The notes under the pieces are model-generated. The model was not told the origin of the DNA and did not search any database. It saw only the letters and a list, made by a program, of their open reading frames with translations. A program made the translations under genes and the position numbers. Shown in pieces: positions 8,665 to 43,990 of a stretch of DNA of 64,000 nt. How positions within the stretch are numbered: the first letter of the stretch is position 1; each line of letters opens with the position of its first letter. Source of the stretch: Mesotaenium endlicherianum (lineage: Eukaryota); contig WELA01001243.1 of the NCBI GenBank assembly GCA_009602735.1, positions 124,445 through 188,444 of the forward strand, in the 5' to 3' direction.

Positions 8665-8912
8665 TGTCGTGCATTAGGGGGTCGAGTGCGCATCATCGGC
8701 ATAAGCAATACACGATAGGCAAGCAGCCTTTGCTGCAATGGAAGCGAAAATACATGTGGCCTTAAAGCCAAAAAGGTGTCGTGCGGTAGGAGATCGAGGG
8801 CGTATCATCGACACAAGCAATGCATAATAAGCAAGCAGGCTTTGCTGCAATGAAGTCTATAGTACATGTGGCTTTATAGCCAAAAGGGCAGTCAAGCGAC
8901 AGATGTTTTAAT
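8665..8912. repeat. Two tandem degenerate copies of a ~112-135 bp unit; third copy at 9921-10057
   Basis: Unit TGTCGTGC...GCAAGCAG...TTTGCTGCAATG...ACATGTGGC...GCCAAAA starts at 8665, 8777 and 9921. Confidence 0.75.
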
Positions 8913-9918
8913 TAAGGAGTGTGTACTCTCCAGAGTGAGCACCTCAAGATTGTAATCTGGTAGGAAAACAACTAATGAAGTCTGGCCCAAAAGATCACTG
9001 GCACATCATGGTTTTCAAGAGTAGTCATACGGCAGGGTTTAAGCTGGGACTTTGCTCACCACTTGTAAAGTTTTTCAAGTGACTAGAAGCCGGAAGGGCT
9101 TGCTCTTCACAAGAGAAAAACTAAGTGGTCCTGAAAACACAAGAGTCAAAAGTGTAAGCTTTACTGATAACTCCGTGACTTACAACTAGCAAAATGGGAC
9201 TTTTAAAAAGATGTCTCTCTAGGGACATCTCTAGTACTTATACTCTTGGAAACTTGGCGTCGTATGCGGCGGATCCAATGCATGTAGTCACTCTAGGAGG
9301 CTCTCCTGTGTCCACTAATGTGTACAAGGAATGTACTAGCACTCCTATAGGCTAAGCATAACTCAAACCAATCAAAGCAAAGCACGTAGAATATGCTATG
9401 TGTCTCTCATTGGTGGAGCTTACCTCGGGTGATGCTACCTAAATAGCGCCTCAAAAGTGAATCTGGAACTTGAGGAAGCTTCCTCTAGGAGTAGGTGATG
9501 CAGTCACCAAGTTATAGCCTCAATGATGCACTTATACTATGGAAATGCAGGATTTATGTAGGCTAAGGGGCTCGCGGAGTTGTGCGCACGAAGATAAGGG
9601 TCCTTGCGGTCACGAATGGCCAACAATGTCACCTTTGGGTACATTGAGTCACAAGTTGGCCATTGGGTGTGATTCCGCTAGGGGCCAAAAGGGGTGCGGA
9701 CTAGATCGCGCCTATCTCGCTCGATACTTAACCAAATGACGCGAAACCGGTGCCATTCGGAATATGCTTCCACGCGCTACACTTTGGTGACTTGGCAAAT
9801 TAGAAAAGGTCAACATATGGATGCAAAAGATCAATGCAAAGTCGGTCTTCCTAGGTTGATGGTTCACACATATGGAGCTCGATTTTGTATGTCAACCTCG
9901 ACTCAATAAATCATGACA
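8913..9918 (-). mobile_element. LTR family C copy (~1.0 kb)
   Basis: Collinear with 23958-24967 and, inverted, with 14038-15043. Begins TGTCATG on its own strand. Confidence 0.8.
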
Positions 9919-10115
9919 GCTGTCGTGCGGTAGGGGATCGAGGGCGTATTATCGACACAAGCAATGCATGATAAGCAAGCAGGCTTTGCTGTAATGAAGT
10001 CTATTGTACATGTGGCTTTATAGCCAAAAAGGCAGTCAAGCGACAAATGTTTTAATTCCCTCCCTAGCTCTCAACCACCAGCTGATGGGCTGTGATCGCT
10101 GCCTAAAGCTAAAGC

Positions 10116-10256
10116 AGTACAGTCACTACAGAACCAGTCTTCAGCTGGCATGCGGGCCAGCGGCGGGTCCAGGCAGCCGATGTGGAGCCCGAGGTTGCAG
10201 CTGTTGCAGAACAGCATCTTGGCGTCTTGGCCGAGGCTGTGGCAGATCTAGCACGC
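10116..10256 (-). pseudogene. PHD finger at integrase C-terminus (one in-frame stop)
   Basis: Manual translation AC*ICHSLGQDAKMLFCNSCNLGLHIGCLDPPLARMPAEDWFCSDC has canonical C4-H-C3 PHD spacing with W-x-C-x2-C. Confidence 0.9.
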
Positions 10257-10325
10257 CCAGTCCTTGGGCGGCCGCACGTCGCGGGGACAAACCTGCATGT
10301 CAAGGTTAGGAAGGTGGCATAGTCC

Positions 10326-11625
10326 TCAGTTCTTTGTGTGGTCCTTGTGAAGACGACCATCTGCGCCTTCCCGCTCCAGGAGTCCTGACGCCAAGACACG
10401 CCTGACGCGTAGGATGACGGGCAAGCTGCTGGTGTTGAGGGTGTTCTTCGTCTGGCGTTGCAGGTACACGAAGTCACATGCGGAAAATTGCAACACCCGT
10501 GGACGATAGGCTCCTCCACGAGTCATGGCATACCTCAGTATGTCGCGGTGCTGAGCAATGCTGAGGTTGTCCATGCCTATGGGCATCAGGCGCTGAAAGA
10601 GTTGTGCACGCAGCCCGATAAAAGCGCTCCACGTCTCGGGACTGTCCAAGTTCAAGATGTTCTCGGCCACGGTCCTGGCTGCTGCTGGCAGGACTGACTG
10701 TTGGCCGTAGAGAAGGAAGTAGGGAGAATGCAAGGCCAGGGAGGTCTGCTTACTAAACCTGTACCCCATAGCCAACCGTGGGAGGGCGTCGTCCCAATGG
10801 GTGCTGTCGTGGGCCAGGCAGTACTTCCACAGCCCAAGCTTGACGGTCTGCACCATGCGCTCTGCAAGGCCGTCAGCCTGGGGATGGTCGCGGGAGGTTG
10901 TGCGGTGGTCAATCATCAAACGCTCCAGCAGCTTTTGAAAGCTGCCCTAGAACTCCTTGCCCTGGTCGGTCAGGTCCTCAGCGCAGCCGCCAAAGCGGCT
11001 AAGGACAAGAAAAGCCTAAGCAATCCCCTCACTGGCCTTGCTGGGCAAAGGCACAAGCTCGATCCACTTGGACATGTGCTCAATCATCACCAAGACGTAG
11101 AGGTTGCCTCGGCGAGACTTGGGAAGCTCCCCAGCCAAGTCGAGCGACCACCTGTAGAACAGCCCCTGAATAGGGAGAGGGATGAGAGCGACGGTGCGGA
11201 CTGTGAAGCTCGAGCGCACCCGGTCGCAAAGAGTGCAGCGGCTGACGAAGTCGGCGACGACCTTAGTTATGCCGTACCACCAGTACTCGGCCTGGAGGAG
11301 GTTGAGAGTGCGCTTAACACCGAAGTGTCCAAGCGTCTCGTGCACACGTCGCACCAGCTGGCTGCGTATAGCACGCTCAAGTACCACCAGGACGGAGCCG
11401 TCCGCCATCACTCGCCGCATGCGCCCCTCCATGAAGACAAAGTCCCGGTTGCGCTTGAGGACGCGGTCGCGCTCGCGAGCACTGATGCTTGGGGCCAACT
11501 CCTTGGCCGTGACGTACTGCAGCATTGGGGCGTTGTCCTACACGTCCTCGGGCCCGCGCTGCCAGCTGTCCTGCTCCTCAGCTCCGGCCAGTGCCAGTCG
11601 CCGAGTGGTGATGGTCACCATATCT
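10326..11625 (-). pseudogene. Integrase (HHCC zinc domain and DDE core) of the DNMT-Gypsy element
   Basis: HETLGHFG...CTLC, WSLDLAG, VLTDQGKEF, HPQADGLAERMVQT, WDDALP, SPYFLLYG; interrupted by stops. Confidence 0.9.
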
Positions 11626-11738
11626 AGGCTGGTGAACCCTGCGGGTCGCACATCGCCGTCAACGGTGAAGGCCAGGAACGCCGCCGCATGCCAGGCAGCT
11701 GGCTCATTCTCATCGTGGCGGGCTACTGTGAGGTCCCT

Positions 11739-13910
11739 CTAAGAGAGCAGGGGCTTACGGCTGAGGCCGTTTGCGTCCAGGTTCGTTGACCCTGGACAAT
11801 GGTGCACGTCGAAGGTATACTCCTGCAAGATGAGCACCCACCGCGCGTACTTGCCTGTCATGAGCTCCGACGTCATGAGCAACTTGAGTGGCTGATGGTC
11901 GGTGACCAAGCGGAAGTGGGTGTCGTAGAGATAATGCCTGAAGTGCATAATCGCCCACACAAATGCCAGGCACTCCCTCTCATGAGAGCCGTAATTGCCC
12001 TCGGCACGATTGTTGCTGCGGCTGGCGTATGCCACCACATGCTCAAAGCCGTCATGCTCCTGCACCAGCACCGCTCCGAGCCCTGCCTGCAACCAGTCGG
12101 TGTAGAGGATGAAGGGCTTTTGGTAATCAGGCCGCCGTAGTACTGGGGCGCTTACCAGCAGCTCCTTGAGCTTTTCAAACGCCGCCTGCTGCTCTAGTCC
12201 CCATACGTAGGCAACGCCCTTGCGTAGCAAGTCGTTGAGCGGCTTGGCCAGCTCGCTGAACCCAGGCACAAAGCGGCGATAGTAGTTGGCGATGCCAAGG
12301 AAGGCCCTCAGCTGCGAGAGGTCGGTCGGCGGCGGGATGCCAGCGATGGCCGAGATCTTGGCCAGCTGAGGGGCCAGGCCACTGGAGGACAGGAGATGCC
12401 CAAGTGTAATGAATCAGTATATTAGTAAATATAATATTCATTTAAATATAATAGTTATTTAAGTTCAGCCTACTGAATTGTATGTAGTATTAAGTCTGCT
12501 GGACTTTATATAATTATCAATTTAAGGGCTCAGCCGGAAGCAGCAGGCTGAAGTCCACTCAAGTCAGCTTGCTGACACATTCTTTGACCGCCAGCTGACT
12601 TCCGTACTCGGTAGCAGCGAACTGCCTCGATATGCATCTAAGTATGATATGCTAGATGAATGGCCAGATGACATCCCTATGATGGATGGCTATTCGGGAT
12701 GACGGGAGATGGAGGTGGATTTGGTTAACCGAGGTCCTACCAACGTGGTTAACTCTCGGGTAGGCGGTGCCATCGCACTGGCCGTTGAACAGTAAACTCA
12801 TTCCATGTACATATGCTAGGCATTGCTCTCTAGTTCGGCATTTGGAAACGAGGCCAACTCTCTTGTACAGCTTACTGAGAGAAACTTGAATCCAAGGCGA
12901 GAAGCCATTGATACGCACTGTCTTCCAACCTTACTTATGTATGAGTTTACTGATTGCATTATTGATGCTAGTTTACTTGCATTTGACTTACGAGTATTAT
13001 TCACTGCTAGTGTGTTGTCCTTTGCTGTTAAATCAATTAACGAAAAATACCATAAAGATTACTTGCTGATATAAAGATCTTTATTAAGTGTTAATCGCCT
13101 ATTTGGTAAGTCGATTCATTTCACCGAGGTACTCCACCTCTCGGGTCCCAAAGGTGCACTTGCCTGGATGGCACTTGAGCCCAACGGCCTCCAAGCAGTC
13201 CAGGACTGCAGTGATGTGCGCCACGTGCTCCTCAAACGTCTCACTGAAGACGAGCACGTCATTGATGTAGCACCGGGCATAGGAGAGCCCTGCCAACTCC
13301 TTATCCATGACTCGCTGGAAGGTGGCAGGAGCGTTCTTCAAGCCGAAGGGCATAACCCTTCACTTGTAGAGACGCTGCAACCCCCAGAAAGCCTTCTCGT
13401 GCTGCTCCTCCTCCGCAATGGGTATGTGGTTGAAGCCTAGTCTCAAATCCAGCACCAAGAACCAATTACAAGCGCCGATGTTGTCAAAGATCTTGTGAGG
13501 GGTCGACATAGGATATCTATCCTGCTCAGTGTCCTCATTAAGCTTACGATAGTCATTGCACATCCTCTTCTCAGACCAGTTGCCTGAGGCGTCCTTCTTA
13601 GTTGGCATGACTGTGGGCGCAGCGTAGGTGGAGGCAGACTCACGAATGAGCTGACACTCCTCTAGCTTGCCTGTCTGCGTGCTGATCAGGTTGTTCTCAA
13701 AGCGGCTGTAGCGGTAGCGCTTCTGGAAGATGGGCACGTCTGTCTGGAGGAGAACCCTCATAGATTTGTCTCTGTAGGGCCCAAGATCGTGCATGCCGCT
13801 GGCAAAGCTGGCACTGCGTCGTGCATCCAATAATGCGATCAGCTGAGCAGCTTGTGCCTCAGTGAGAGTCCCCCCTTGCTTCCAAGTAGGGACAGCTGGT
13901 GGTGGCTCGT
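11739..13910 (-). pseudogene. Reverse transcriptase and RNase H (copy 1), split by a solo LTR A
   Basis: RMCNDYRKLN, LDLRLGFNHI, MPFGLKNAPATFQR, YIND (decayed YIDD), FILYTDW, ECLAFVWA, TDHQPL. Confidence 0.9.
12405..13123 (+). mobile_element. Solo LTR, family A
   Basis: TGTAATGAATC...GATTCATTTCA termini; 5-bp TSD CCAAG/CCGAG (one mismatch); inserted in the RT EYLG motif. Confidence 0.92.
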
Positions 13911-14029
13911 TGAACTGAATCGACTTACCAATAGGCGATTAATAATTAATAAAAGGTCTTTATATCAACAAGCAATCTTTATGGTATTTTTTGTTTACGG
14001 ATTTAGCAGCAAAAGACAACACGCTAGCA
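13911..14029 (-). mobile_element. Fragment of LTR family A (3' end, inverted)
   Basis: Reverse complement of the last ~120 bp of LTR A. Confidence 0.8.
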
Positions 14030-14037
14030 AGGGGTAA

Positions 14038-15043
14038 TGTCATGACTCATTAGGTCGGGACCGTCGGCCCAGCCAAGACACGCGTGCGTCGACCATCAAC
14101 CTAGGGGGCCCGACTTTGACCTTCCGTCACGCATTCACATGTGGACCTTTGCTAGCATTCCAAATTACTAAAGTGTAGAGCGTTGCGTCACCTTCCGAAC
14201 GCCACCGGTTGCGCGCCATTTGGTCAAGTGTTTGAGCGAGATATTTGCGATCTAGTCCGTGCCACCTACCGGTCCCTAGCGGAGTTCCACCAAAGGCCAC
14301 TTTGTGACTTATTGTGCCCAAAGGCCACATTGTTGGCTCTTTGCAACTCCAAGGACCCCTAGCCATTCTCATACAAATCCGCGAGCTTGATAAAGTACAC
14401 TTAGCATGCATTAGCATAGTGTATGAGCACCATCAGAGCTATAACTTGGTGCCTGCATCACTCCTTTCTAGAGGAAGCTTCCTCATGTTTTAGATCTACT
14501 TTTGAGGCGTTATCTAGGTAGCATTGGTCGAGGTAAGCTCCGCCAATGAGAGTCATGTATTCTCTTCCTTGTACTATATTTGAGTGATGTGTGTTGTGCT
14601 TAGCCAATAGAAGAGCTAGTACTTGCCTTGCCTCCACTTTCGTGGACCTAGGAGAGCCTTCTAGAGTGACTGTGTGCATTGAATCCCCCGCCTTCAGCGC
14701 CAGTGTTCCAGGGAGTATATAGCAGTAGATGCTCTTAGAAGGACATCTTTTTAGAAGTCATTTGCCATTTGTAAGACACAGAGTTATCAATAAAGCTTAC
14801 ACTTTTACCTCTTGTGTTTCCAGGACCACTGAGTCTCTCTCTTGTGAAGAGCAAGCCCTCCTGGCTTCCAGTCACTAGAAGAAGTCACAAGTGGTGAGCA
14901 AAGTCACAGCTTAAACCCTGCCATAGGACTACTCTTGAAGATCATGATGTGCTTCCAATGATCTTTTGGGCCAGACTTCATTAGTTGTTTTCCTACCAGA
15001 TTACAATCTTGAGGTGCTCACTCTCGAGAGTACACACTCATTA
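14038..15043 (+). mobile_element. LTR family C copy, preceded by a short purine tract
   Basis: Inverted relative to 8913-9918 and 23958-24967. AGGGGTAA lies directly before TGTCATGA, as expected for a PPT followed by a 3' LTR. Confidence 0.8.
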
Positions 15044-15045
15044 TT

Positions 15046-16270
15046 GCTTCCGCCGCGTGCCAGGCAGTTGGCTCATCCTCATCGTGGCGGGCTACTGTGA
15101 GGTCCCTCCAAGAGAGCAGGGGCTTGCGGTTGAGGCCGTCCGCATCCAGGTTCGTCGACCTTGGACAATGGTGCACGTCGAAGGTGTACTCCTGCAAGAT
15201 GAGCGCCCACCGTGCGTACTTTGCCTGTCAGGTGCTCCGACGTCATGGGCCACTCGAGTGGCTGATGGTCGGTGACCAAGCGGAAGTGGGTGCCGTAGAG
15301 ATAGTGCCTGAAATGCACAATCGCCCATACAGCTGCCAGGGCCTCACCCTCATAAGAGTTGATGTTGCCCTTAGCACGATTGTTGCTGCGGCCGGCGTAC
15401 GCCATCACATGCTCGAAGCCGTCATGCTCCTGCACCGGTACTGCTCCAATACCTGCCTGCGACCAGTCGGTGTGGAGGATGAAGGGCTTCTAAAAGTCAG
15501 GCCGCCGTAGTACTAGGGGCGCTCACCAACAGCTCCTTGAGCTTGTCAAACGCCGCCTGCTGCTGTGGTCCCTATACGTAGGCAACGCCACGTGCTCCTC
15601 AAACGTCTCACTAAAGACGAGCACGTCATCGATGTAGCACCGGGCAAAGAAGAGCCCTGCCAACTCCTTATCCATGATCCGCTGGTAGGTGGCAGGTCCG
15701 TTCTTCAAGCCAAAGGGCATAACCGTCCACTCGTAGAGACGTTCCGACCCTCAGAAAGTCGTCTTGTGCTGGTCCTTCTCCGCGATGGATATATAGTTGA
15801 AGCCCTGCATCAAATCCAGCACCGAAAACCAAGTACAAGCCCCAATGTCGTCGAAGATCTCGTCAGGTGTCGGCATAGGACATCTGTCCTGCTAAGTGAC
15901 CTTGTTAAGCTTACGATAGGTCACCGCACGTCCTCTTCTCAGACCAATTGCCTGAGGCGTCCTTCTTAGCTGGCATGACTGTGGGCGCAGCGTAGGTGGA
16001 GGCCGACTCACGAATGAGCTGACACTCCTCTAGCTTGCTTGTCTGCGTGCTGATCAGGTCGTCCTCAAAGCGGCTGTAGCGATAGCGCTTCTGGAAGATG
16101 GGCACGTCCGTCTGGAGGGGAATCCTCATAGGGTGGCCTGTGTAGCGCCCAAGATCGTGCATGCCGCTGGCAAAGCTGGCACTGCGCCGTGCATCTAGCA
16201 ATGCCGTCAGCTAAGCAACCTGTGCCTCAGTGAGAGTCCCCCCCAGCTTCCAAGTAGGGGCAGCTGGTGG
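15046..16270 (-). pseudogene. Reverse transcriptase and RNase H (copy 2, internally deleted)
   Basis: [46 protein letters not shown]. Paralogous to 11739-13910, with a deletion near 15575. Confidence 0.88.
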
Positions 16271-17649
16271 TGGCTCCTGCGCTGCAGCTGACGCCTCTTG
16301 CCCTGCTGCTGGCATGATCTGTGGGACTGTAGCGTCCCCTGCCCTGCAGTTGGGTGCGCTCGGCCTGCCTCGAGTGCCTCCTCCTCGGCAGCTGCTGCCA
16401 GCTGCTCAGCACCACCTGCCGGCAGAGAGCGTGGAAAAAGAAATGGGGAGCGAAACTCTCTGGGTCGCTTTGAGGACTCCTGACTCCTCCTTCCCCCCCC
16501 CAGCGAACCAGAACCAAGACCAGGATGCGGCGCAGGCGGCTGCTGGGAAGCAGGACCCTCCCGCTGGGAATGGCAGGTTGTATCAGGCAAAGCGCGGCCG
16601 TTGGCGTTGAAATCACGGTTCATGGCATCGTAGGATTGGTCCATCTCAGGATGACGAGCCTGGGCGTAGAGGGGAGTCAGGGTCTGTGTCTGCAATAGGA
16701 TCCACGTTAAGACGTTGGCATCGATAGCCTGGCCAAGGAGACGTATGCGGTTGACCTCGGTGATGTCGTCCACTTGTGTGAGGTGCGGAGGAAAGCCCAT
16801 CGCACGCTCCATCTCCATGGCACGGGGCCGCTGGAACATGCCGATCTTGAGGTCAATGATCATGCCGCGCTGGTCCTCCACGTATGCTGCGCTGTTGTAG
16901 CGACTCACAAATGTAGGAAGCCCCCGCGTGACGTCGTGGAGAACCTCACACTGGGCCTGGGAAGAATGTGGAAGGGCGGCCACGCGCTGGGCCAGACGCG
17001 CCACGGCAAGAATAGAATCAACGTTGCGCGTGTGGCGTGGATGTGCGGCCGCCAATGCCTCAAGCGTGCCTGGCATGGCCAGGTCGGTGAAGTAAGCACG
17101 CACGCGGTGCGCAAAGGAGCCAATTTGGGCAGCGTTGATGACGGCCTCACGACCGACGTAGCTGCTGCAGAGGGCAAAGTTGGCGCTAACGTTGGGCCAA
17201 GAATCGTGGCGTGCAGCCACGTTCTCTAACACCCAGGCGAGCGTGTGAGGCGGCTGGCGGTCCTCAACCATGTTGAGGACGCGGAGCAGATGCCAGAATA
17301 GGACCGTACGCGGGTTAGCAAGCGCGCCTCCGCGTCTCGCGATGGAGAAGCCCTGGCACTCCCAGCCAGCGATGATGAAGTCGATGGGCCCCAGGCGTGT
17401 GATGTGCATGGCGGTGATGTCGTGGATGTCCATGGGCCAATCAGTCCAGGCGCGGTAGAAGGCGTGCTCAGGGAAGAGGTCCGGGAAACGCTCGTGGCAC
17501 AAGGCCATCTGCCTGCGAGCCACCTGCTGCGCCTTGCCAACAGGGTCCATGTAGACGTACCAACGTACAGGGATGCCAGCCTGGAGGGTGGCCAGCAGCC
17601 CTGTCGCAATGCCGCCGAGACGCTTGTCAAGCTGGACGATGTAGATAGG
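16207..17649 (-). CDS. C5 cytosine DNA methyltransferase domain within retrotransposon pol (DNMT3-like motif pattern)
   Basis: Degenerate motif I (IYIVQLDKRLGGIATGL), motif IV with catalytic Cys (DFIIAGWECQGFS), VI (WVLENV), VIII (AHRVRAYFTDL), IX (EMERAMGFP) and X (RIRLLGQAID), in correct order, directly upstream of RT. Confidence 0.9.
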   Translation of the reverse strand, partial: PIYIVQLDKRLGGIATGLLATLQAGIPVRWYVYMDPVGKAQQVARRQMALCHERFPDLFPEHAFYRAWTDWPMDIHDITAMHITRLGPIDFIIAGWECQGFSIARRGGALANPRTVLFWHLLRVLNMVEDRQPPHTLAWVLENVAARHDSWPNVSANFALCSSYVGREAVINAAQIGSFAHRVRAYFTDLAMPGTLEALAAAHPRHTRNVDSILAVARLAQRVAALPHSSQAQCEVLHDVTRGLPTFVSRYNSAAYVEDQRGMIIDLKIGMFQRPRAMEMERAMGFPPHLTQVDDITEVNRIRLLGQAIDANVLTWILLQTQTLTPLYAQARHPEMDQSYDAMNRDFNANGRALPDTTCHSQREGPASQQPPAPHPGLGSGSLGGGRRSQESSKRPREFRSPFLFPRSLPAGGAEQLAAAAEEEALEAGRAHPTAGQGTLQSHRSCQQQGKRRQLQRRSHHQLPLLGSWGGLSLRHRLLS

Positions 17650-17654
17650 CGTAG

Positions 17655-18597
17655 TTTTACGTTTCTGCTTTTCGAGAGGATCTTTCCTCGATATTCAAGG
17701 AATATTTAATTCAAGTGGAAGGAAAATCTGTATAATTGTGCAAATCGACGAATACTCGAAAGAGCGAAAATGTAAACTAACGTAGAATGTGTGCTTGTGA
17801 GAGTTGCACTCACAATGACTCTACAGGTATTTATACCTGCACAACATGAGGCACTGGAGTGCTTCGAGTCACCACCTAGGGCACTGGTTTATGTTCAACG
17901 AAAACGGTCGAAGGGATGTGTCCCATTTGGCCGAATGCTCAAAACGCGCCGTTTGGCGGTTTGGAGACTTTTCAATGGTTTTCAGAAAACCGGTTCGCGC
18001 CAAACGGGCGTTTTCGCGTTCTCGCATCTTTTCGAAAAGTCGCGACTGTTCGCAGAGTCGCGTTCATAGGATTACGTCATGAACCAGGAGTTACGAATAA
18101 CTACTTGGCCAATTGGTTTAGGTGTGAACGTTTCAAACGACAAGTCGCGGGTTCGAATCTGCGTCGATGCAAAGCGACTTTGCATATTTCGTTTCGTTTG
18201 TCTTTACGGCGATTTGTTCGTATCTTGATACGACGATTTGTTCGTATTAACGACTGGTCGTAAATTCGAAATCTGTGATTGTGCATTGTCGAAATAATGA
18301 CAATCAAATCAATTTAATCAATCAATGATTTAATAAGTTATCATCTCATAATTAATCAAAGTAACTTTATGAATATTTATGTCGTACTTTTGCGAAGTAG
18401 TCGAGTTACGTTACGACGCTTTTTGCAATAGTATGTCGGTCGTTTCGCCAATCGACCAGGAATTAATCGGCACACACGTGTGGCAAATAATTGAATATGA
18501 TGCAATCATTTATCAAATAATATGATGAATAGTATAACGTACTTTAGGTAATTGGGAAAACATCCCAAATACGCCTAAAATAGCTCGGATCGTTACA
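17655..18597. mobile_element. Solo LTR, family E (943 bp, AT-rich)
   Basis: Perfect 5-bp TSD CGTAG at 17650-17654 and 18598-18602; right end CGTTACA, left end decayed TTTTACG. Confidence 0.8.
18104..18171 (+). promoter_or_regulatory. tRNA-like internal Pol III promoter (A box and B box) inside LTR E
   Basis: A-box-like TGGCCAATTGG at 18106-18116 and B box GGTTCGAATC at 18150-18159 at tRNA spacing; T-arm-like stem CGCGG/CTGCG. Confidence 0.5.
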
Positions 18598-19559
18598 CGT
18601 AGGAAGGGGGCAACAGCCCATGGCGGGATTGCCGGCCTGCGCTGGCGCCGGGTAGGAGCGCAGAAGACTGTGCTGATGGGGCGCCATGCGGAGAGCCGCT
18701 ACTGCGAGCTTTGCGTAGTGACGAGTAAGCCAAGGAATGCGCTCAAGCAGCGGCTGCGGGCGAACGGTGCGAGCATGCGCCTGGTAAATGCGCCAGCGCG
18801 CGCGCGCGTCCTGCAATGCCTCCTTGGGCACTGGGAGGGCCATAGCCTAGGCGTCGGAAGCGCACTGCAGCTGCCAGCGAGCGGTCTCTTGCCCTGTGGT
18901 CAGCGTGGTGTGAAGTGGCGTGGGCCAGCTGCGCTGTGGCTGTGCGCTGGTGCAGCTGGGGACGCTGATTGAAGTATAAACGTTGGCGCTTGCGAAGATC
19001 CGTCTGGATGGGCACTGTGCAGACGGAGCGCTCGTCCCTATGTGCCGCCTGTCGAGGATGGACGAGCTGACGTGGAGCGAGTTGGACTCGCGGGCGCAGC
19101 GGAGAAAGAGATGCGAGTCGGACGTGCTCCCGCTGGCGGCGTTGTATGATCTCAGCGCGTATGGCGGTAGTATAGGGATGGCGGTCGCAGGAACGGACAG
19201 CGGTGCGGGCCACCTTATGAGGAGGTGACCCAGACGGCCCGTTGCCGACTATGTGGCTGCGCGGGACGGCGGCAGGCCAGCCAGGCGGCGTTTGGTACAA
19301 TGTGTGGGCGAGCGCTGCAACAGTAATGGCAGTCGTGGCGATGGCGTGTGCCTCGACGGCATCCGCCGCCATCTAACGCATCATGGTGTTATGAGCGGCG
19401 TAGATCCGCACCGTCTCCCTAGCCTATGCGGCTAGAACGTCAGCCTGCTCCTTGGGCGTGAGGTGGAGCTCTGCGCCGGGCAGCTCAAAGTCCTCATCCT
19501 GCGTCTCAAGCAAGTCGGCGCCTACAGACCTCATCCTCCTCGGGCCCCCCCTTATCGGT

Positions 19560-20060
19560 CTAAATCACGGGCCGACCGTTGTCAAGCGCCATGAAGCCGT
19601 AGAGGGCGGACTCAGCTGAGCGACGATCCACGATGTCAAGCAGCACGGATGCCGTGCGGGTCCCCCCTGACTGCCAGTCAGGTCGGTAGAAGACCCGCTC
19701 CACCCAGTTATCCACTGCGACGCCGATAGGAAAGAGAATGTCCTGGCCAAGGAGCACGTCGAAGGTCTTAGAGCAAGTGACCAACGCGTGCCGGTGGATG
19801 GTCATCTCATCCGGAGTGCCGGGCCAAAAGGTGAAGCGAAGGGCCAGCCGCGTGCTCCCGGCTACGGTCTCGGACGTGCCGGCTCGCGATGTTGATCCGC
19901 GTCGGCAAATCCTCTAGGTTGGCTGAGAAGAGGCCCAGCTGGAGGAAGTAGCGGACACTGATGAGGACTGGCTGGGCGTCAGTGTTGAACATAATGGGCT
20001 GCGGGGCCTGCGTGTTAACCAGCACGATCCCCTGCAAATTATCAAAAAACGCAGCGTTAG
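19560..20060 (-). pseudogene. Decayed aspartic protease of the DNMT-Gypsy element
   Basis: PIMFNTDAQPVLIS corresponds to LVVIDTGAQPVLLG at ~43900; downstream FDVLLGQDIL...VDNW corresponds to YDLLLSRKF...VDSW. Confidence 0.75.
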
Positions 20061-21597
20061 GCGTGCTGATCATCCTGGGCTCATGTGCAGGTCGCGCGGG
20101 TGCGGAGAGCACCGCAACTGCCACGTCTGGCCTGTCGCCAGAGGCGCAATGGCTGGCCTTGCGCAACCAAAGCAGTAGCTGAGTCGCCTGCCGTGTGACC
20201 TCCATTAACATGCTGAGCTCCGCAAAGGAGACGGCTGGCATCCGGTGTAGCGCCAGCGAGATGACTTCGGCGCTGAGCTGCATCGTAGTCATCGGCGAGG
20301 CGAGTGCGCGTGGTGCAAGGGCAGCTGGCTCCGCTGGCGTCTCCAGCACGCGGAAGGAGCGGGGCAGGTGCGACGCCTCCTCTGTGCGGCGGCCCTGCTC
20401 TGGTTCGCTGCGCTTCTGCGCCACTGCCGGTCGCCCGGCTGCCGCCACCAGTGTGCGCTCACGTCCTGCAATTCCTCCCGTCGTGCGGCTGTCCAAAGGA
20501 TGTGTGCGTGCGCAGCAGGCCAAAACAAAGTTTGGAGCTGCTGCGAGAGCCGGAGTGACAAAAGCTGGCGCAGCTGCTGGCGTAGGCATAGTGGTCGCTG
20601 GCGCAGCTGGCACTGGCGCAGCTGCGTGCGCTGGCGAGACGACAAACGCCTTGGCTGGCGCAGCTGCTGGCGCGAGCACAATTGCTGCTAGCGCAGCCGT
20701 GTGCGCTAGTGCAGCCGTCGACGCCATAGCTGAGGCTGACGCTGCCTCCGGTGCCGTTGTCCCGCTCGCCGATGGAACCGCCGATGCTTGCGCCGCTGCT
20801 GGCGCCACTGCAGATGCCAACGCAGCTGCCAGCGTAGGTGCCACGGATGCTGGCGCAGCTGTCGGTGCCGGCGCAGCTGCTGGCGCGTACGTAGCGGCTG
20901 CTGGCATGGCTGCCGGCGCTGGCGTGCCTGGCGTTGGCAAGCCCAGCGCTGGCGCAGCAGGTGTCTGGTGGGCTGGCGCTCCTGTCACTGGTGTCGCAGG
21001 GGTAGTGCGAGCTAGTGGGGACGCTCCAGAGCATGCCTGCGCAGCTGTCGACGCAGGTGCCAGGCCTGCTGGCGCAGCTGTTAGAGCTGGCGCCGCCTCG
21101 GCAATCGGAAGGCCGCCAAGTGGCACTGGCCCTCCTGGCGCTGGCACCATGAGTAGCGCTGGCTTTGATCCTCTTGCAGCTGGCGCCTCGGAAGGAGCGG
21201 CTACGGATGTCAGCGCAGCTTCGGGCATAGGCGCTTTGGCTTCTGGCGCGAACGCCGGAGCTGGCACAGGCTTGGATGCTGGCAGGTCGACTAGTGGCGC
21301 CTCAAAGATGCCCCTGGGCTTGCCAGGTCGCGTCGCCCGACCGGTGTCGGTGTCGGTATTGGCTACCCCAAGCAAGGTACGTGGCGCCCTCCAGGTGGCG
21401 CGTGCGCTCGCCGAGACCCTTGCCACGCTTATCGCGCAGGCCTGAGGGTTTTGTGCGCAGCCAGGGTTTAGGCCCTGGCTGTGCACAGCCGTGTGCGTGC
21501 CGTCAAAGCTCTGAACGGGTGTACGGCCGCACAACGCGGTCGATAATGCCCCCCCCTAATTCGAGATGGTAGTCCCGGCCGCCAAATTCTGCGCTGG

Positions 21598-23728
21598 TTA
21601 AGCCGGGCTGGGTACGCGTGCAAAGTGGCAGCGCGTGTGCGCAGCTGCTGACGTGCCTGTCGAGATGTGGTTGCGTGGTTGGCTGCAGAGCGAGCCTCGC
21701 AATGCGGCACGCGGCGTGAGCGGGTGTGCAGGTGTGCAACTGCCGTCGGACAAAGTCTTGCCAGCCGCGGACGCGACAGGTGGAGGCACCGGTTGGAATC
21801 TGCTGCTTGCAGCAGCCAGCAGGGTGCGATCGTTCGGAGACGATCGATTGGGGCGCAAATTTGCGCATGGGCGGACGTCTCGTAGGGCGAGGGGCGCTGC
21901 AGATGTAATAGCCGGCTGGCAGGCCCAACCTGTCGCGCCAGTTGTCACTCCGCAAGCTGCAAACAACTCTGCTGGCGTCAACAGGACAACGCAGGCCAGA
22001 GGAGCTGCGGGAGCCTGCGTTGGCTGCACTGGCGGGAGTGCCTGCCCGTCAAAAGGCGTGTCTGCGGCGAGGGATGGCGAGACCGCGCGGACTTGCGGCT
22101 TGCCATCTAGCAGCCTGTCAGGGAGGAAGCCATCGCTGCTGACGACTGTCAGTGCGACGTGCGCACAGCTGGCAGGAGCGTCTGCGCAGATGTCTGCGGT
22201 GCTAGATGCAAGAGCTCCGTCAAAGGGCGGGCCAGTGGTGGGCTGCATTGTCGCTGTGGCGCTAGGTGATAGCCTCTGAGGCTGCTCCGTGTCAGCGCTG
22301 TGAATGTGCGCAGAGGCTACGCGGACGCCAGCTGTCGGAGCTGGAGCGTTGGTCGGCGGGACGCGTGCAAGGAGGGCTCCGCACGCGTTGTAGCTATCGA
22401 TTGCAACTAGGTCAGGGAGTCTAGCGATCTCCGCGTTGGCCTCCACGAGGGCGTCGCTGACATCGTCAAAGCTGCAATAGTCGGCTCCGGGGGTCAGCGC
22501 GTCGTCCATGGTGGCCGTGGCTGCCGTCATCGAGGGGCGTCCACCCGTGCGAGGGTTACGCATGCCTCGCTGTCCTACTACTGACGGCGCGGGGCAATCA
22601 CAAGCGCGTCCGTTCTCGACGTCGCGCTTTCTTTGCAGGCATATGATCTGCAGGTGACCGACCTTGCCACAGTAGGTACAGTCGCCAGGCTTGCCATTCT
22701 GCGCGATTGTGCAGTTCTGGCGAGAGTGGCCCGTCTTCCCGCAAGACCAACAGGGGTCGCTCGTCGTGGCGGCCATGGAAATGCAGCCACGCGTAGCTCC
22801 GCGCTGCTGAGTTTGCTAGGGCAGCTGAGAGCGCTAAGACCAACAGGGGTCGCTCGTCGTGGCGGCCATGGAAATGCAGCCACGCGTAGCTCCGCGCTGC
22901 TGAGTTTGCTAGGGCAGCTGAGAGCGCTAAGACCAACAGGGGTCGCTCGTCGTGGCGGCCATGGAAATGCAGCCACGCGTAGCTCCGCGCTGCTGAGTTT
23001 GCTAGGGCAGCTGAGAGCGCTGGGGCTGTTGCTGCTACTGGGGCTGGCGAGCCGAAGCTGGGCGCATCGTGGAAGATGGCAGCACCAAGGACTCCTGACG
23101 TACGCCCGTATGCAAGGCCCACACGATTGCTATTGTTGCTTCGTGCGGCAGCCAAGCTCTGCTTCTCAACTGAGAGGTAAGCGTCCATCAGCGAGTACTC
23201 GGAGCCAATGTGATAGATGAGGGGGGAGGTGGCCCTCTCCCTCAATTGTGGCTCCACGGCACGCAAGAAGATCTCCGCTGCCTCCCGGTCGGTGAGGGTG
23301 CCAACGTCTCGGTGAAGGTGCGTCAAGCGGCGGTACATCATGCGGGTCATCTTATTTCTGCAGCTGTAGAAGTGGTGCAGCTCGTACACCTTCTCTTTGG
23401 TCGCGGCCTGGAACTCCTTCCTGAGGACGACCCAGAAGGCCTTGACCGGATCAGCGAGGAGGGTCTCCACTGGGGGTTCCCCCACAAGCTCTGTGCGTGC
23501 ATAGATCTTGTCACCCTTCTCGCGGAAGGTGTCACGGGCCTCGTAGAGGAGATAGCGCATGAGCGTATAGAACACGTCACGCTTAGTGAGCACGGGCGTT
23601 TTAAGCCTCGCAATCACGAACTCAGCCTCGAACTCTGAGATTGTGTCGTCCAGATCACAGGTTCCTGGTCTGCCGTTCAAGCGGAAGAGGGAGGACCTGT
23701 CAACCTTGAGCTCTTCGTCACCTGCCAT
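21598..23728 (-). pseudogene. gag of the DNMT-Gypsy element (frameshifted)
   Basis: Capsid-like ORF 23728-22598; two CCHC knuckles (CWSCGKTGHSRQNC, CTYCGKVGHLQIIC) in the neighbouring frame at ~22756-22637. Confidence 0.8.
22744..23021. repeat. Three apparently identical 93-bp tandem repeats in gag
   Basis: Units start at 22744, 22837 and 22930. Confidence 0.95.
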
Positions 23729-23957
23729 GGGATATCAGGAATCGTGGTGAGCCCACTGGAAAGTTGGCTCAGGGACAATCACAGGAGGTACGAGTGCTGG
23801 CTGCTCCCCTTCAGAGGGTTCAATGACAGTACTGAGATCGAAGTCTGAGTCTTCTCCACCAACCCCTTTGTAGTAAGGCTGGTAAGAAAGCCCACTACAG
23901 GTAGGCATATGCTGAAGATTCTAATTGCTTGCAGGCAAAGAGACATCTTTCTAGAAG

Positions 23958-24967
23958 TAAGGAGTGTGTACTCTCTAGAGTGAGCACCTCAAGACTGTAA
24001 TTTGGTAGGAAAACGACTAATGAAGTCTGGTCCAAAAGATCACTAAAGGCACATCATGGTCTTCAAAAGTAGTCCTATGGCAGGATTTAAGCTGTGACTT
24101 TGCTCACCAGTTGAGAAGTTCTTTAAGTGACTGGAAGCCAGGAGGGCCTGCTCTTCACAAGAGAGAGACTAAGTGGTCCTGAAAACAATAGAGTCAAAAG
24201 AGTAAGCTTTACTGATAACTCCGTGACTTACAACTGGCATAATGGGACTTCTAAAAAGACGTTCCTCTAGGGACATCTCTAGTACTTATACTCCTGGGAA
24301 CCCGGCGTCGTATGCGGTGGACCCAACGCATGTAGTCACCGTAAGAGGCTCTCCTATGTCCACTAATGTGTAGAAGGCATGTACTATCACTCCTATAGGC
24401 TAAGCATATCTCAAACCAATCAAAGCAAAGCACGTAGAATATGCTATGTGTCTCTCATTGGTGGAGCTTACCTTGGGTGATTCTACCCAGATCGCGCCTC
24501 AAAAGCGAATCTGGAACTTGAGGAAGCTTCCTCTAGGAGTAGGTGATGCAGTCACCAAGTTATAGCCTCAAAGATGCACTTATACTATGGAAATGCAAGA
24601 CTGTTGTAGTCTAAGGGGCTCGCAAAATTTTTGCATACAAAGCTAGGGGTCTTTGGGGTCACAAATAGCCAACAATGTCACCTTTGGGTACATTTAGTCA
24701 CAAGTTGGCCATTTGGTGTGATTCCGCTAGGGGCCAAAAGGGGAGCGGACTAGATCGCGCCTATCTCGCTCGATACTTGACCAAATGACGCAAAACTTGT
24801 GCCATTCGGAAGATGCTTCGACACGCTACACTTTGATGACTTGGAAATCTAGAAAAGGTCAACATATGGATGCATAAGGTCAATGCAAAGTCGGACTTCC
24901 TAGGTTGATGGTTCACACAAGTGGAGCTCGATTTTGTACGTCAACCTCGACTCAATAAATCATGACA
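23958..24967 (-). mobile_element. LTR family C copy upstream of the DNMT-Gypsy gag
   Basis: Direct repeat of 8913-9918. Confidence 0.8.
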
Positions 24968-26686: not shown

Positions 26687-26698
26687 TGGTATCGGAGC
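26687..26698 (+). promoter_or_regulatory. Primer binding site, initiator tRNA-Met type
   Basis: TGGTATCGGAGC, 1 nt after the LTR; differs by one base from the usual plant iMet PBS TGGTATCAGAGC. Confidence 0.9.
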
Positions 26699-39900: not shown

Positions 39901-42533
39901 TGCCTCACATTCAATTTGCGATCAACAGCGCGGTGCATGCGTCAACGGGAAAGCCTCCTTTTGAACTTACTCTGGATAGAGTCCCCAAGTCCCCTTTAGA
40001 TATACTAGGGGAGTCTTTAACTCACCCTGAGGAGATTGACAATCCGGTGTCGCTCCTGTTAACTCAGGAGTTTGTTGACACCCTATTAGAAGTCCAACAC
40101 AATCTGCACAAAGCCCAAAAAAATCAACAAAATTACGCTATTCAACACCGTCAGAAGCTGACATTTTCAAAGGGCAATTTGGTCAAACTGCATTCTCAAC
40201 ACCTGTACCTGCCTGGTGTGGTCAAGAAAAAGCTTGGTCCGGTCTGGGTCGGTCCATATATGGTGGTGCGCCGTGTCGGTCAAAATGCTTACAAACTGAA
40301 CATGTCAGCTAAATACAAGGGTCACCCAATCTTTAATGTCTCCTTTCTGGAACCATACATCAAAGGTGACACACTGTTCACAGGTCGGTTACCTGTCTAT
40401 TAGGACCGGTCCCCGCTGTTCGAGAAGGTGACCCTGAGAAATATGAGGTTGATGAGATTTTAGAAGCTCGCTCTGTCTATCGATCATCTAAATATGTCAT
40501 GAAAAATTTGGTCAGATGGAAGGATTACAATGCCTCTGGGGACACCTGGAAATTTTAGGACCATTTGACCAATGCCGAAGGGGCGTTGTAACGATTTTAC
40601 CTTTGGGAGGCTGGGACACCTCTCTAATTGTCATTTCAGGTGACATGGGAAGGTGACAGGAGATCTTGTCTTCATTTAAGTTGGAGGGGAAATGTGGCCA
40701 AACGTGGCCTAAAGTGACAGTTAGTGACGGAAAGTGACAGTATTTGACAGGGAGTGACAGTTGTGACGGGCAACCCAGTGACAGCTGAAACGGGCAACCC
40801 ACCTCAAACATTAAGTTGGAGGGAGTGGGATAAATATCTCAAAAACTAGCCGATTATCGATTGCCGTTGCATATTCATCCGTGACACTCAATTGCGCTCA
40901 CACTCACTTCTCTCTCTAGGAACACTTGCCCTTTCAATTCACTTACACCAGGTATTGCATGTCCTAACTCCCTCTACTACGTTCTTCCCTGTCAAAGTAC
41001 TCAATCCTGTGCATGATATCATGACTACACTAACCCCATTGTGGTATGAACGAGCAGGATGACTCAATTGTTTGAACTCAAGAGAAAAAGAAGGGCGGAC
41101 GAGGCACAAGCGGAGTACAAGGAATTCCATGTCGACATCAAACCATCCTCCATCTCTTCTCCAAAATCAGAGCGACTCCAACTACAGCGGAAGGCTCAGA
41201 AGAGGAAGGAGGAGGAGGAACAGGCCAGGTTGAGACAGGAAGAGCAGAACAAAAAAGCTGCAGAGAAAGCCAAGAAGGCGGAGGAACAAAGGTTTGCTGA
41301 GGAGAGGCAGAAGCAGCAGGTTGAGGAGGAACATAGGAGAATCAAAATCTACTGCTACACGGTGATGGGCAAGGGCTTTGACAAAGCTGACAGAAGGGCT
41401 GCCAAGGAGGCAGCCAGAGGGCAACCAGCATCTCCCTCTCATAAAGGGCATGTACCATTAGCTCATGTCATGCAGCACCCCTCCGTTATGCCAGTGTATG
41501 TCCTTGCCAGTTTGAGAGCTGCACAAGAGAGAGCGGTCTCCATCAACTTGCAGACAATGCAAGAGCAGGCTGCCCAGTTGCTGCGTTCACTCCTCGGTTG
41601 ACCCTGGTCTAAGCCTCCAGGTTTCAGGAGACTATCAGATAGGAGAAGCAGATCCGGTTCCAGGTCTCGCTCCCCAGAAGACCGAGCCCCTGGTACTTAG
41701 TTTGCTGTTGTCTTTGTTTTAAGTTCAGTTGATTGTGTTGCATGTGTGTTACTTGGCAGTAAATAATATAGAAGTGTTGTCTAGTCGACAACAATTTAAG
41801 TTGGAGGGATTGTAATGAGTCAATATATTGGATAGGTATAATATTCATTTAGATATGATAGTTAAATAACTTCAACCTGCTCAACTTTAGTTAATATTAA
41901 TTGTGCAGGATAATTGATACTTAGTTAAATGACTCAGCCGAGAGTAGCAGGCTGAAGTCCATTAGGTCAGCCTGTTGACTTGGGTCAGCTTGCTGCCACA
42001 TTCTTTGACAATCAGCTGGCTGCCGTACTCGGCAGCAGCAAACTGCCTAGCTATGCATCTAAGTGTGGTCTGCTAGATGAGTGGCCAAATGACACCCTTA
42101 AGGTGGATGGCGATTCGAGATGAAGGAAGATGGTTGTGGATTTGGTTAGCCGAGGTCCTACCAACGTGGTTAACTTCCGGGTAGGCGGTGCCATCGCACT
42201 TGCCGTTGAACAGTAAACTCATTTCATGTACATATGCTAGGTGTTGGTCTCGAGTCCAGCATTCGAATACGAGGCCAACTCCCTATTGAGATATATTTGA
42301 ATCCAAGGCGAGAAGCCATTGATACGCACTGTCTTCTAGCCTTGCTTATGTATGAGTTTACGGATTGCATTATTGATGCTCGTTTACTTGCATTTGACCT
42401 GCGAGTATTGTCCACCGCTAGTCTGTTTGTCTTTGCTGTTTAATCAGATAACAGTAAATACCATAAAGATTACTTGCTGATATACAAATCTTCATTAATT
42501 GTTAATGGCCTGTTGGAAAGTTGATTCATTTCA

Positions 42534-43990
42534 ACCATGCCAGGACCCCACAAGCCGTCTGACTGAGGTCAAAAGGCATAGGAGGAAGGTTGGCTAACAA
42601 AGGTAGGGAAAGCACGGCGTGGCTAAGTGGGGAGGTTTAGCGAGCATTGGGAAGGGTGATTGGGTAAAAGACAGGCATAGGAAGGAGGTGGGAGGGAAGA
42701 ATAGTAGTGACCAGCTGACGGTGGGGCCAGCTGTGGACGGCCAGGGCGGCAGCGTGAAGATCGGGTTGAGGTGCGAGGTTGGTCCAGTAGATGCGGGAGC
42801 AGGGGGCGTAGGCCCCAACAGCGGTAGCGTCAAGGAGAACGCCAGGGCCGAGGATGGCAGTGATGTAGGCGAAGTCAGCACGGACATTGGCGCGGCGGTC
42901 GTCTCCAGAGGGGACGTTGTCAAGCAAATATGCAGGAGAAGGTAAAGGACCGACCTGGAGCACCTGGAGAATGCCAATGAGCTCATGGAAGAGACGAGAG
43001 CGAGGATCAGCAAGGCCAAGGCCGTGGCTGGCCTGAGAGTGCCCTTGGCACTTCCAGTCGGCCACGACCAAATCAATGTGCCCTAAGGGCAGAAGGTTGT
43101 CGGGGTCGAGCAGGCGAATGTCTTGGGGTAGGGCGGCATGAACGGAGGCATAAGCAGTGGACGAGAGGAGGGTGGGGAAGTGTGTAGTGAGCAAGCGGAG
43201 ATGGTGATAGCTAGCAGCGCGTGCAGTAGGGTCCTGATCACAGTAAAAGTAGCGGTGAATAGGGATGTTGTTATGCAACAATGCAGCGATTGGTGTGGAG
43301 AGGCCTGCGAAGAGGTTGAGCACAACGAGGCCTTGAGGAGGGACTGTGAGTGGGTGGAGAGTGATGTCAAGGGTGCTTGGAAGAGATGATGGGGGAGGGG
43401 GGAGAGGGGGCAAAAGGGCAGGGTAGGCCAAGGCATATTCAGCTTGGGTGTGTGCGGCGCGCAGATGGGTGGATGGTTCATAGATGGCGACGCATGCATG
43501 GACATAGGTGACTGAAGTAGCAGTCTGGGCTGATGTGGCTGCAGAAGGTGTGAGAGTAAGGTGCATAGGCAGGTAACCGACATGTTGGCCCACGCCATGC
43601 AATTTGACTCGGTAGTGTGCTTGCTGAGTCCACGAGTCAACGGTGAGGCCTAAGGGCAAATTAAACTTCCGACTTAGTAAAAGATCGTAAGAGGTTGCAT
43701 CAGTGATGACACACTGGGCGAACAAGGTGACAGCGTCCTGGGCGCCAGGGTTAAAAAAAGATGGCCAGGCGACGTTTAGTGAGGTGCACTGGTTGGGTAG
43801 AACTTTTGAGCGCAGTGGCCATGTGCAAGTCACTATTGATCATGTCTGCGCCAGTAAGCCCCAGTAACTGGCAAAGGCGCGCCGAGCAAAACGGGCTGGG
43901 CGCCGGTGTCAATGACGACCAGGCCAGGGGCGACGCCGCTGACTGTGACCACAGCACGGGTGTTATCTACACGTGCATTCGACGGACGGA
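42534..43990 (-). pseudogene. Second, divergent protease plus C5 DNA methyltransferase fragment of a Gypsy-type pol
   Basis: LVVIDTGAQPVLLG protease; motif I VVLNLFAGL; IV HIDLVVADWKCQGHS; VI YLLDNV; VIII LDATAVGAYAPCSRIYWTNL; RRAFPTFVS; truncated by LTR A at 42533. Confidence 0.88.

What the first reader, a model, noticed from the sequence alone, without database searches (positions are those of the whole stretch)
10058..23728. LTR retrotransposon with its own cytosine DNA methyltransferase between protease and RT
Seen: a C5-MTase motif series (degenerate I, IV GWECQGFS, VI ENV, VIII RxR, IX, X) at 16207-17649, on the same strand and between a decayed aspartic protease and the RT of a Gypsy-order pol. 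Established: DNMT-carrying retrotransposons have been reported in dinoflagellates and the charophyte Klebsormidium (de Mendoza et al. 2018, cited from memory), so the concept is rare but not new. Inference: protease cleavage would release the DNMT inside the particle, where it could methylate the cDNA before integration. The W-E-C catalytic loop in place of P-C is unusual.
Basis: partly seen in the sequence, partly recalled or inferred. Interest (0 to 1): 0.85.

Follow-up and report, generated by a model that had tools for sequence, protein, structure and literature searches.

The report
Gypsy retrotransposon carrying DNMT3-like methyltransferase
This is a dead copy of an abundant jumping-gene family whose replication protein carries its own DNA cytosine methyltransferase, a kind already described in one green alga, and its unusual ends suggest that it likely inserts from a DNA circle rather than from linear DNA.

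Summary
Confirmed. A DNMT3-type C5-methyltransferase domain (17649-16690, minus strand; PF00145 39 bits; nearest solved structure DNMT3A) lies between protease and RT of a Gypsy pol that ends in integrase-PHD. A 948-bp solo-LTR-like insertion interrupts this copy just upstream; other copies lack it, and a relative (P0018) has gag-PR-DNMT-RT-RH-IN-PHD in one 2,300-aa ORF. The locus is dead and composite. E-before-Cys is not odd here: 87 of the best 150 relatives have it. The real element spans 24967-8777 with DIRS-like split repeats A…B-A-B, as reported for KnitGypsy-Dnmt3 (PMC5890265), so this is a new, divergent member (at most 40% identical) of a known kind. This scan noted the kind before on peat-moss-like DNA. 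A palindrome CA-GC-TG at the B|A junction is conserved across the clade and in Chlamydomonas Gypsy families; its halves are the element's ends. A self-priming-type PBS and a PPT frame B-gc-A as the true LTR. This implies integration from end-joined circles cut inside an LTR (inferred; the scan noted it before). Methylation of cDNA is untested.

The parts
23956..24967 (-). Repeat A1 (left end; starts TGTCATG; holds TATA-like box and likely transcription start near 24266)
   Evidence: 90.6% identical to 8910-9918; complement of PBS at 24266
23939..23957 (-). Self-priming-type primer binding site (complementary to the predicted RNA 5' end inside A)
   Evidence: 17/19 match to A2 9218-9200, 15/19 to A1; 0 of 500 shuffles; same relation in L050 (18/19) and L002 (17/19)
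22598..23734 (-). gag (frameshifted; 92-bp unit tandemly repeated at 22740-23021)
   Evidence: BLASTP to P0018 gag E 3e-8; tandem unit
21598..22815 (-). Zinc knuckle and downstream low-complexity gag region
   Evidence: PF00098 23 bits
19566..20121 (-). Decayed aspartic protease (frameshift; catalytic DTG lost)
   Evidence: tblastn of P0003/P0008/P0018 protease, E 1e-5 to 2e-15
18598..19560 (-). PR-DNMT linker, about 1.06 kb against about 0.37 kb in relatives; no Pfam match
17650..18597 (-). Later insertion: 948-bp AT-rich, CpG-rich solo-LTR-like element starting TGTAAC, target duplication CTACG
   Evidence: contigs in runs X1 and X2 join 17649 to 18598/17651 to 18600; ends and CpG O/E 1.82
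16690..17649 (-). DNMT3-type C5 cytosine methyltransferase domain of pol
   Evidence: PF00145 39.2 bits; phmmer DNMT3A E 3.4e-11; Foldseek DNMT3A E 9.6e-14
15586..16276 (-). RT N-terminal half, copy 1 (cut by an internal deletion)
   Evidence: tblastn P0018 50% identity; 88.6% to 13219-13908
15050..15589 (-). RNase H, copy 1
   Evidence: PF17917 90.9 bits
14038..15049 (+). Inverted A-type repeat of a related element (79% to A1/A2)
13125..13908 (-). RT, copy 2 (begins at the DNMT-RT linker)
   Evidence: PF00078 63.9 bits
12399..13123 (+). Solo LTR of the window's chromovirus family inserted in RT
   Evidence: TG...CA ends, CCAAG/CCGAG flanks; same repeat flanks the pol at 28154-31984
11739..12404 (-). 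RT thumb and RNase H, copy 2
   Evidence: PF17917 125.5 bits
10326..11612 (-). DDE integrase (H2C2 and rve; broken by stops)
   Evidence: PF17921 60.4 bits, PF00665 19.4 bits; tblastn P0018
10098..10260 (-). PHD finger at the end of pol
   Evidence: PF00628 42.6 bits
10058..10075 (-). Polypurine tract
   Evidence: sequence
9921..10057 (-). Repeat B1 (ends CACGACA)
   Evidence: 94% to 8774-8913; other copies end at 9921
9912..9927 (.). Junction palindrome CACGACA-GC-TGTCATG (candidate internal integrase att site)
   Evidence: exact 10-mer in 11 of 26 PHD-bearing relatives, always downstream of PHD, 0 in 180 kb upstream; in Chlamydomonas Gypsy families
8911..9918 (-). Repeat A2 (poly(A) end of related transcripts at 9148)
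8777..8910 (-). Repeat B2 (right end, CACGACA)
   Evidence: A-to-B joins in several contigs
8665..8776 (-). Partial third B copy (82%)
42533..43950 (-). Second, unrelated-family PR-DNMT relic in the same window (loop reads DWKCQ)
   Evidence: tblastn E 9e-45; PF00145 19.5 bits, below cut-off

Best explanation
This is a dead, composite copy of a multicopy Gypsy-PHD retrotransposon family whose Pol polyprotein carries a DNMT3-type cytosine methyltransferase between protease and reverse transcriptase; the enzyme likely methylates the element's own new cDNA, and the element likely integrates from an end-joined circle that integrase would cut at a palindrome inside the LTR. Steps. (1) Shown by sequence: domain order, DNMT inside pol at family level, split repeats, PBS complementarity, PPT, palindrome whose halves are the genomic ends. 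(2) Inferred: RNA starts in A1 and ends in A2; it self-primes at the PBS as in Tf1; plus strand primes at the PPT; ordinary reverse transcription then gives [B-gc-A]-internal-[B-gc-A]. (3) Inferred: the two cDNA ends are joined (A|B); integrase makes a staggered CA/GC/TG cut at one internal palindrome and inserts A-internal-B-gc-A-B. (4) Inferred, weakest: the protease frees the DNMT in the particle, where it marks the cDNA so that the host treats it as self or the new copy starts silenced.
For: PF00145 match and DNMT3A as nearest sequence and fold. Contigs of other copies join linker to DNMT across the 948-bp insert. P0018 is one unbroken 2,300-aa gag-PR-DNMT(WEC)-RT-RH-IN-PHD ORF, colinear with the window. 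29 of 80 metagenome loci are PR-MT-RT and 36 of 80 RH-MT-IN; the two form sister clades in the RT tree (95/78 and 99/97), and the PR-MT-RT group holds together in the MT tree (SH-aLRT 91). MT dN/dS is 0.14-0.18 in 3 diverged pairs with measurable dS. Catalytic Cys is kept in at least 148 of 150 relatives. Split repeats with 4-bp target duplications in L050 (AAGG) and L039 (CACA). Other copies end exactly at 9918 and 9921. PBS complementarity is kept in unrelated sequence. A2|B2 is a flush join of the PBS-side end and the PPT-side start. One-repeat right ends in L011 and L012. Foamy-virus integrase cleaves an LTR-LTR palindrome in this geometry (PMC1180852 section 8).
Against: No activity is shown for any Gypsy DNMT; KnitGypsy-Dnmt3 did not methylate DNA in yeast (PMC5890265 section 10). 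This copy's motif I lacks the F of F-G-G. Gypsy-7a_cRei has the CA-GC-TG junction but no DNMT is listed among its domains, so the DNMT is not needed for the end structure. The window element has no target duplication and is a composite, so A1 and A2 may come from different copies. 15 of 26 PHD-bearing loci lack the exact palindrome (many contigs end early; a few do not). Poly(A) evidence is 10 reads in one run. No circle was observed. RNA reads over most of RT-integrase were near zero in three runs.
Confidence: 0.62

Rival explanations
1. The DNMT is a true part of pol but works without methylating cDNA: as a DNA/RNA-binding or chromatin-targeting module, or by methylating the target site or host chromatin after nuclear entry together with the PHD finger.
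For: KnitGypsy-Dnmt3 inactive in yeast. The P-C loop is freely replaced by E-C, S-C or D-C. The domain sits next to integrase in 36 of 80 loci.
Against: Cys, ENV-type Glu and RxR are all retained across the clade, which points to catalysis; SymbioDIRS-Dnmt3 domains are active.
Confidence: 0.25
2. The split repeats arise without circles: the RNA runs to B2 and the internal B1-A2 copy templates both ends during reverse transcription (PAT/Ngaro-like), giving a linear A-internal-B-A-B DNA with ordinary TG...CA ends.
For: The repeat order is that of DIRS-order elements; linear DNA is the normal integrase substrate.
Against: A PPT sits directly before B1 and a PBS directly after A1, which define B-gc-A as the copied LTR; related transcripts have a poly(A) end inside A; the 2-bp GC spacer is conserved as expected of a processing site.
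Confidence: 0.25
3. The DNMT is an independent insertion or a host pseudogene that landed in a Gypsy copy.
For: An AT-rich 948-bp block separates it from the protease in this copy, and a frameshift separates it from RT.
Against: The block is a later insertion absent from other copies; 101 of the best 150 relatives are fused to pol domains; P0018 is intact and colinear.
Confidence: 0.02

Closest known systems
KnitGypsy-Dnmt3 of Klebsormidium nitens (de Mendoza et al. 2018, PMC5890265; passages, sections 10-11 and a search of 3 supplementary files)
   Same: Intronless DNMT3-type domain inside Gypsy Pol; DIRS-like repeat structure with Gypsy domains; purifying selection on the DNMT.
   Different: Its sequence and Fig. 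4c were not available, so DNMT position, PHD finger and tree position could not be compared. The paper's text gives no mechanism for the repeats. This family is highly multicopy and at most 40% identical to any relative found.
Chlamydomonas reinhardtii Gypsy-PHD families (Gypsy-3, -6, -7a and others; PMC9940879, passages and repeat-library supplement)
   Same: PPT-B-CA/GC/TG junction before the right repeat; PHD finger in Gypsy-7a; the left LTR lacks the end of the right LTR.
   Different: No DNMT listed for Gypsy-7a; its internal record starts TGG (tRNA-type PBS) and B is only about 8 bp.
SymbioDIRS-Dnmt3 (dinoflagellates)
   Same: DNMT3 inside Pol, split repeats; shown to methylate CG de novo in yeast.
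   Different: DIRS element (tyrosine recombinase, recalled); independent capture according to the paper.
EpiLTRs and DAM-LTRs (bioRxiv 10.64898/2026.05.21.726589; passages)
   Same: Gypsy-like elements with methyltransferases and a chromatin reader.
   Different: Adenine MTase plus DNMT4-related enzyme and chromodomain; the preprint treats 'streptophyte Gypsy-DNMT3' as a separate, known acquisition.
Foamy-virus integrase cleavage of the LTR-LTR palindrome (PMC1180852; abstract and section 8)
   Same: Staggered cut after CA on both strands leaving a 2-nt 5' overhang.
   Different: There the palindrome forms only at the circle junction; here it is encoded inside the LTR.

Membership tests
C5 cytosine methyltransferases (PF00145) | Profile match above cut-off and motifs I, IV, VI, VIII, IX, X in order | tested here: met
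   39.2 bits against 22; motifs; motif I degenerate in this copy
DNMT3 subfamily | Closest to DNMT3A/B catalytic domain in sequence and fold | tested here: met
   phmmer DNMT3A E 3.4e-11 against HhaI 1e-3; Foldseek top hits all DNMT3 (model pLDDT 70)
DNMT3 subfamily | Groups with cellular DNMT3 in a tree of all DNMT classes | not tested
   No cellular DNMT sequences were on hand; the tree used only phage/bacterial outgroups
C5 cytosine methyltransferases | SAM-dependent methylation of DNA cytosine | not testable with these tools
   needs an assay
Ty3/Gypsy | gag, PR-RT-RH-IN order with DDE integrase | tested here: met
Ty3/Gypsy (canonical) | Two equal LTRs, the right one starting TG directly after the PPT | tested here: not met
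   A...PPT-B-gc-A-B; TG follows the PPT by about 140 bp
Gypsy-DNMT3 (KnitGypsy-Dnmt3 kind) | DNMT3-like domain within the Pol ORF | tested here: met
   family level; this copy is broken
Gypsy-DNMT3 (KnitGypsy-Dnmt3 kind) | DIRS-like split repeats | tested here: met
   window and L050
Gypsy-DNMT3 (KnitGypsy-Dnmt3 kind) | Common origin with the K. nitens element (RT and DNMT trees) | not testable with these tools
   K. nitens sequences not obtained; main supplement too large to read
DIRS/Ngaro/PAT | Tyrosine recombinase instead of DDE integrase | tested here: not met
   rve/H2C2 integrase present; no recombinase family among 14 ORFs scanned nor in P0018
Chromoviruses | Chromodomain at the integrase C-terminus | tested here: not met
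   PHD finger instead
Tf1-type self-priming elements | PBS complementary to the transcript's 5' end within the LTR | tested here: inconclusive
   17-18 of 19 nt complementary just below a TATA-like box in three elements; the transcription start was not mapped

The most novel reading that the evidence does not exclude
A large green-lineage clade of Gypsy-PHD retrotransposons has moved its integrase attachment site into the LTR as a palindrome, so that it must integrate from end-joined cDNA circles; part of the clade carries a DNMT3 that has switched position within pol and methylates those circles before integration.
Probability: 0.4. Interest if true: 0.85.

Novelty: new member of a known kind. 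Interest (0 to 1): 0.6.

Why it matters
Retrotransposons that carry the host's own silencing enzyme are rare in print (for Gypsy: one alga). The data here show a large, old clade under selection, with the enzyme in two positions of pol, and a divergent high-copy family that has filled one genome. If the end anatomy is read correctly, an LTR retrotransposon uses two-LTR circles, long treated as dead ends, as its route to integration. That can be tested directly in Chlamydomonas, where a relative with the same junction is active in laboratory strains.

Tried and rejected
No genome is held for the window, so copies were seen only through run contigs. Independent-insertion reading rejected. A1/A2 as solo LTRs of an unrelated family, my first reading, rejected once L050 showed the same arrangement and the PBS paired with A. 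W-E-C as decay rejected; note that the locus search pattern itself demanded W[PEK]CQ and the phmmer query carried W-E-C, so both counts lean towards these states. No RNA holder was listed for 15600-19900; the RNA lay covered 8890-12400 only, so DNMT transcription was not examined. No tRNA gene in the window; two Rfam hits below gathering score taken as chance. The alignment search for longer proteins covered only 2,329-5,000 aa and found none, which is uninformative. Viral-contig hits are stand-alone phage MTases at weak E-values. dS was saturated for MT in 5 of 11 pairs; three close pairs gave 0.39-0.52, as expected for dead copies. CpG O/E of the ORFs (0.54-0.99) gave no signal either way. 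The ESM Atlas did not complete. The REM1 paper was not held. The host was not identified.
Full report
Observation. On the minus strand, ORF 17694-16207 matches PF00145 at 39.2 bits (cut-off 22). Against solved structures the nearest sequences are DNMT3A (E 3.4e-11), then DNMT3C and DNMT3B; HhaI is at 1e-3. An AlphaFold model (pLDDT 70) returns DNMT3A/3B as all listed top Foldseek hits (best E 9.6e-14). The domain spans 17649 to about 16690. Motifs IV (GWECQ), VI (ENV), VIII (HRVR), IX and X are present; motif I reads DKRLGG where relatives have F-G-G. Upstream lie gag, a zinc knuckle and a protease that has lost its DTG; downstream lie RT, RNase H, integrase and a PHD finger.

The DNMT belongs to pol. 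A 948-bp AT-rich block at 18597-17650 starts TGTAAC and is flanked by CTACG on both sides. Contigs in two runs of one sample join 17649 to 18598 or 17651 to 18600 (3 contigs in X1, 2 in X2), so it is a later insertion. In X1, 6,090 contigs lay on the 7.7-kb stretch, 4,151 of them under 95% alike, so the family is highly multicopy; the tool warns that depth is no copy number. P0018 is a single 2,300-aa ORF with PR, DNMT (GWECQ), RT, RH, IN and PHD in that order and is colinear with the window. A full scan of 50%-identity clusters gave 1,018 hits at E up to 0.001 and 341 at 1e-10. Of the best 150, 19 are PR-MT or MT-RT fusions, 82 are RH-MT or MT-IN fusions and 49 show the MT alone; the best full-length identity is 37%. 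Of 80 metagenome loci kept from 239, 29 are PR-MT-RT, 36 RH-MT-IN and 15 undetermined. After removing rows over 90% alike (49 to 33 RT rows, 81 to 62 MT rows), the two architectures are sister clades in the RT tree (95/78 and 99/97). The PR-MT-RT group also holds in the MT tree (SH-aLRT 91), where the window domain is a long branch with at most 40% identity. Whether this reflects one capture with relocation or two captures was not resolved, because no cellular DNMT3 was in the tree. MT dN/dS was 0.14, 0.17 and 0.18 in the three diverged pairs with measurable dS, of 11 pairs tried.

W-E-C. Among the best 150 relatives the two residues are E-C in 87, P-C in 49, S-C in 8, D-C in 4 and other in 2. 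E-C occurs in 11 locus ORFs of 1,000 aa or more. It is a clade variant, not decay. That many bacterial C5 enzymes also have an acidic residue before the Cys is recalled, not tested.

State of this copy. It is dead: broken protease, frameshifts and stops, and three insertions. RT N-terminus and RNase H occur twice (K2P 0.124 and 0.125), separated by an inverted A-type repeat, so the locus joins two family members. A1/A2 differ by K2P 0.098 and there is no target duplication at the outer ends. In three RNA runs (6 to 13% read), 132, 183 and 266 reads lay on 8890-12400; none was 99% alike, and almost none covered 11014-11957. The DNMT itself was not in that stretch.

The ends. The element runs from 24967 to 8777 as A1 - ORFs - PPT - B1 - GC - A2 - B2. 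L050 has the same layout with unrelated A and B sequence and a 4-bp target duplication; L039 also has one. The legend of Fig. 4c in PMC5890265 says KnitGypsy-Dnmt3 has DIRS-type repeats with Gypsy domains. The B|A junction CACGACA-GC-TGTCATG is near-palindromic. Its exact core GACAGCTGTC occurs in 11 of 26 PHD-bearing loci, in both architectures, always downstream of the PHD (74 kb) and never upstream (180 kb); chance would give under one in all 819 kb. Reads from other copies stop matching exactly at 9918 (7, 7 and 8 reads) and at 9921 (9 reads), the two halves of the palindrome. In the Chlamydomonas repeat library, 10 of 11 occurrences of the 10-mer lie in non-coding context, most shortly after a G-run, and the internal records of several Gypsy families end in ACAGC before an LTR starting TGT (PMC9940879 supplement, cut when stored). 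The 19 nt after A1 are complementary to A just below a TATA-like box: 17/19 in the window, 18/19 in L050, 17/19 in L002, 0 of 500 shuffles each. This is the Tf1 self-priming arrangement (recalled). Ten reads in one run carry a poly(A) end at 9148, about 70 nt below that site. A2|B2 is a flush join of the PBS-side end of A and the PPT-side start of B in the window, and the same with one substitution in L050; L034 and L039, probably one locus, keep 10 nt of PBS at the join. L011 and L012 end at B1 with no A2-B2.

Mechanism. PBS and PPT define the copied LTR as B-gc-A, so ordinary reverse transcription would yield [B-gc-A]-internal-[B-gc-A], whose ends lack TG...CA. The genomic form is a circular permutation of that molecule opened at an internal palindrome. 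The simplest account is end-joining to a two-LTR circle and a staggered integrase cut, the geometry shown for foamy-virus integrase (PMC1180852 section 8). Cutting a one-LTR circle, or both palindromes, would give the one-repeat form. This is inference; no circle was seen. For the DNMT, self-methylation of cDNA is the published hypothesis (PMC5890265 section 11); the Klebsormidium domain was inactive in yeast, a result its authors call inconclusive. The end structure does not need the DNMT, since Gypsy-7a_cRei shares the junction and has none listed.

Novelty. The kind is in print (PMC5890265) and is cited as 'streptophyte Gypsy-DNMT3' in a 2026 preprint. This scan noted it before on peat-moss-like DNA (e1-7364918, e1-7304653) and noted the circle idea in moss Gypsy elements (e1-7364451, e1-7226295). 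I reached the circle reading before seeing the last two; they are unchecked notes, not support. Ten literature searches gave, by listing, no paper on two DNMT positions, a self-priming PBS or circle-based integration for this clade. The REM1 paper, the main supplement and figures of PMC5890265, theses and Repbase reports could not be seen and may describe these features. Verdict: real; a new divergent member of a known kind, with a testable and surprising end anatomy. Interest 0.6.

Noticed in passing
window 42533-43950 (-): A second PR-DNMT relic of another family (31-32% identical to the first; loop DWKCQ), cut by a chromovirus LTR. The genome holds at least two DNMT-Gypsy lineages.
   Followed up: partly
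window 17650-18597: The inserted solo-LTR-like element is AT-rich yet CpG-enriched (O/E 1.82) and holds a tRNA-like A/B-box stretch near 18100-18170 (seen by eye; ARAGORN and Rfam found nothing).
   Followed up: partly
window 25991-34737 (+): A canonical chromovirus with 97%-identical LTRs, tRNA-Met-type PBS, PPT and an open 1,276-aa pol with chromodomain; its LTR occurs at least seven times in the window.
   Followed up: partly
window 54058-58045 (-) and 45139-46654: A second chromovirus family (SH3-chromodomain pol) with a partial gag copy.
   Followed up: no
window 60660-61502 (+): Eukaryote-type inorganic pyrophosphatase-like frame (PF00719, 37 bits), divergent.
   Followed up: partly
window 2081-2755 (-): MFS_1-like transporter exon.
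   Followed up: no
window 18598-19560 (-): The PR-DNMT linker is about three times longer than in relatives, is shared by other copies and has no Pfam match.
   Followed up: partly
L015, L020, L026, L031 downstream of pol: RH-MT-IN elements carry extra coding-like sequence between the PHD and the right end.
   Followed up: no
L050 1679-2016 and 10353-10690: Repeat A in this family has its own inverted end motif (TCATGACA) just before its 3' end, like a relic canonical LTR end.
   Followed up: no
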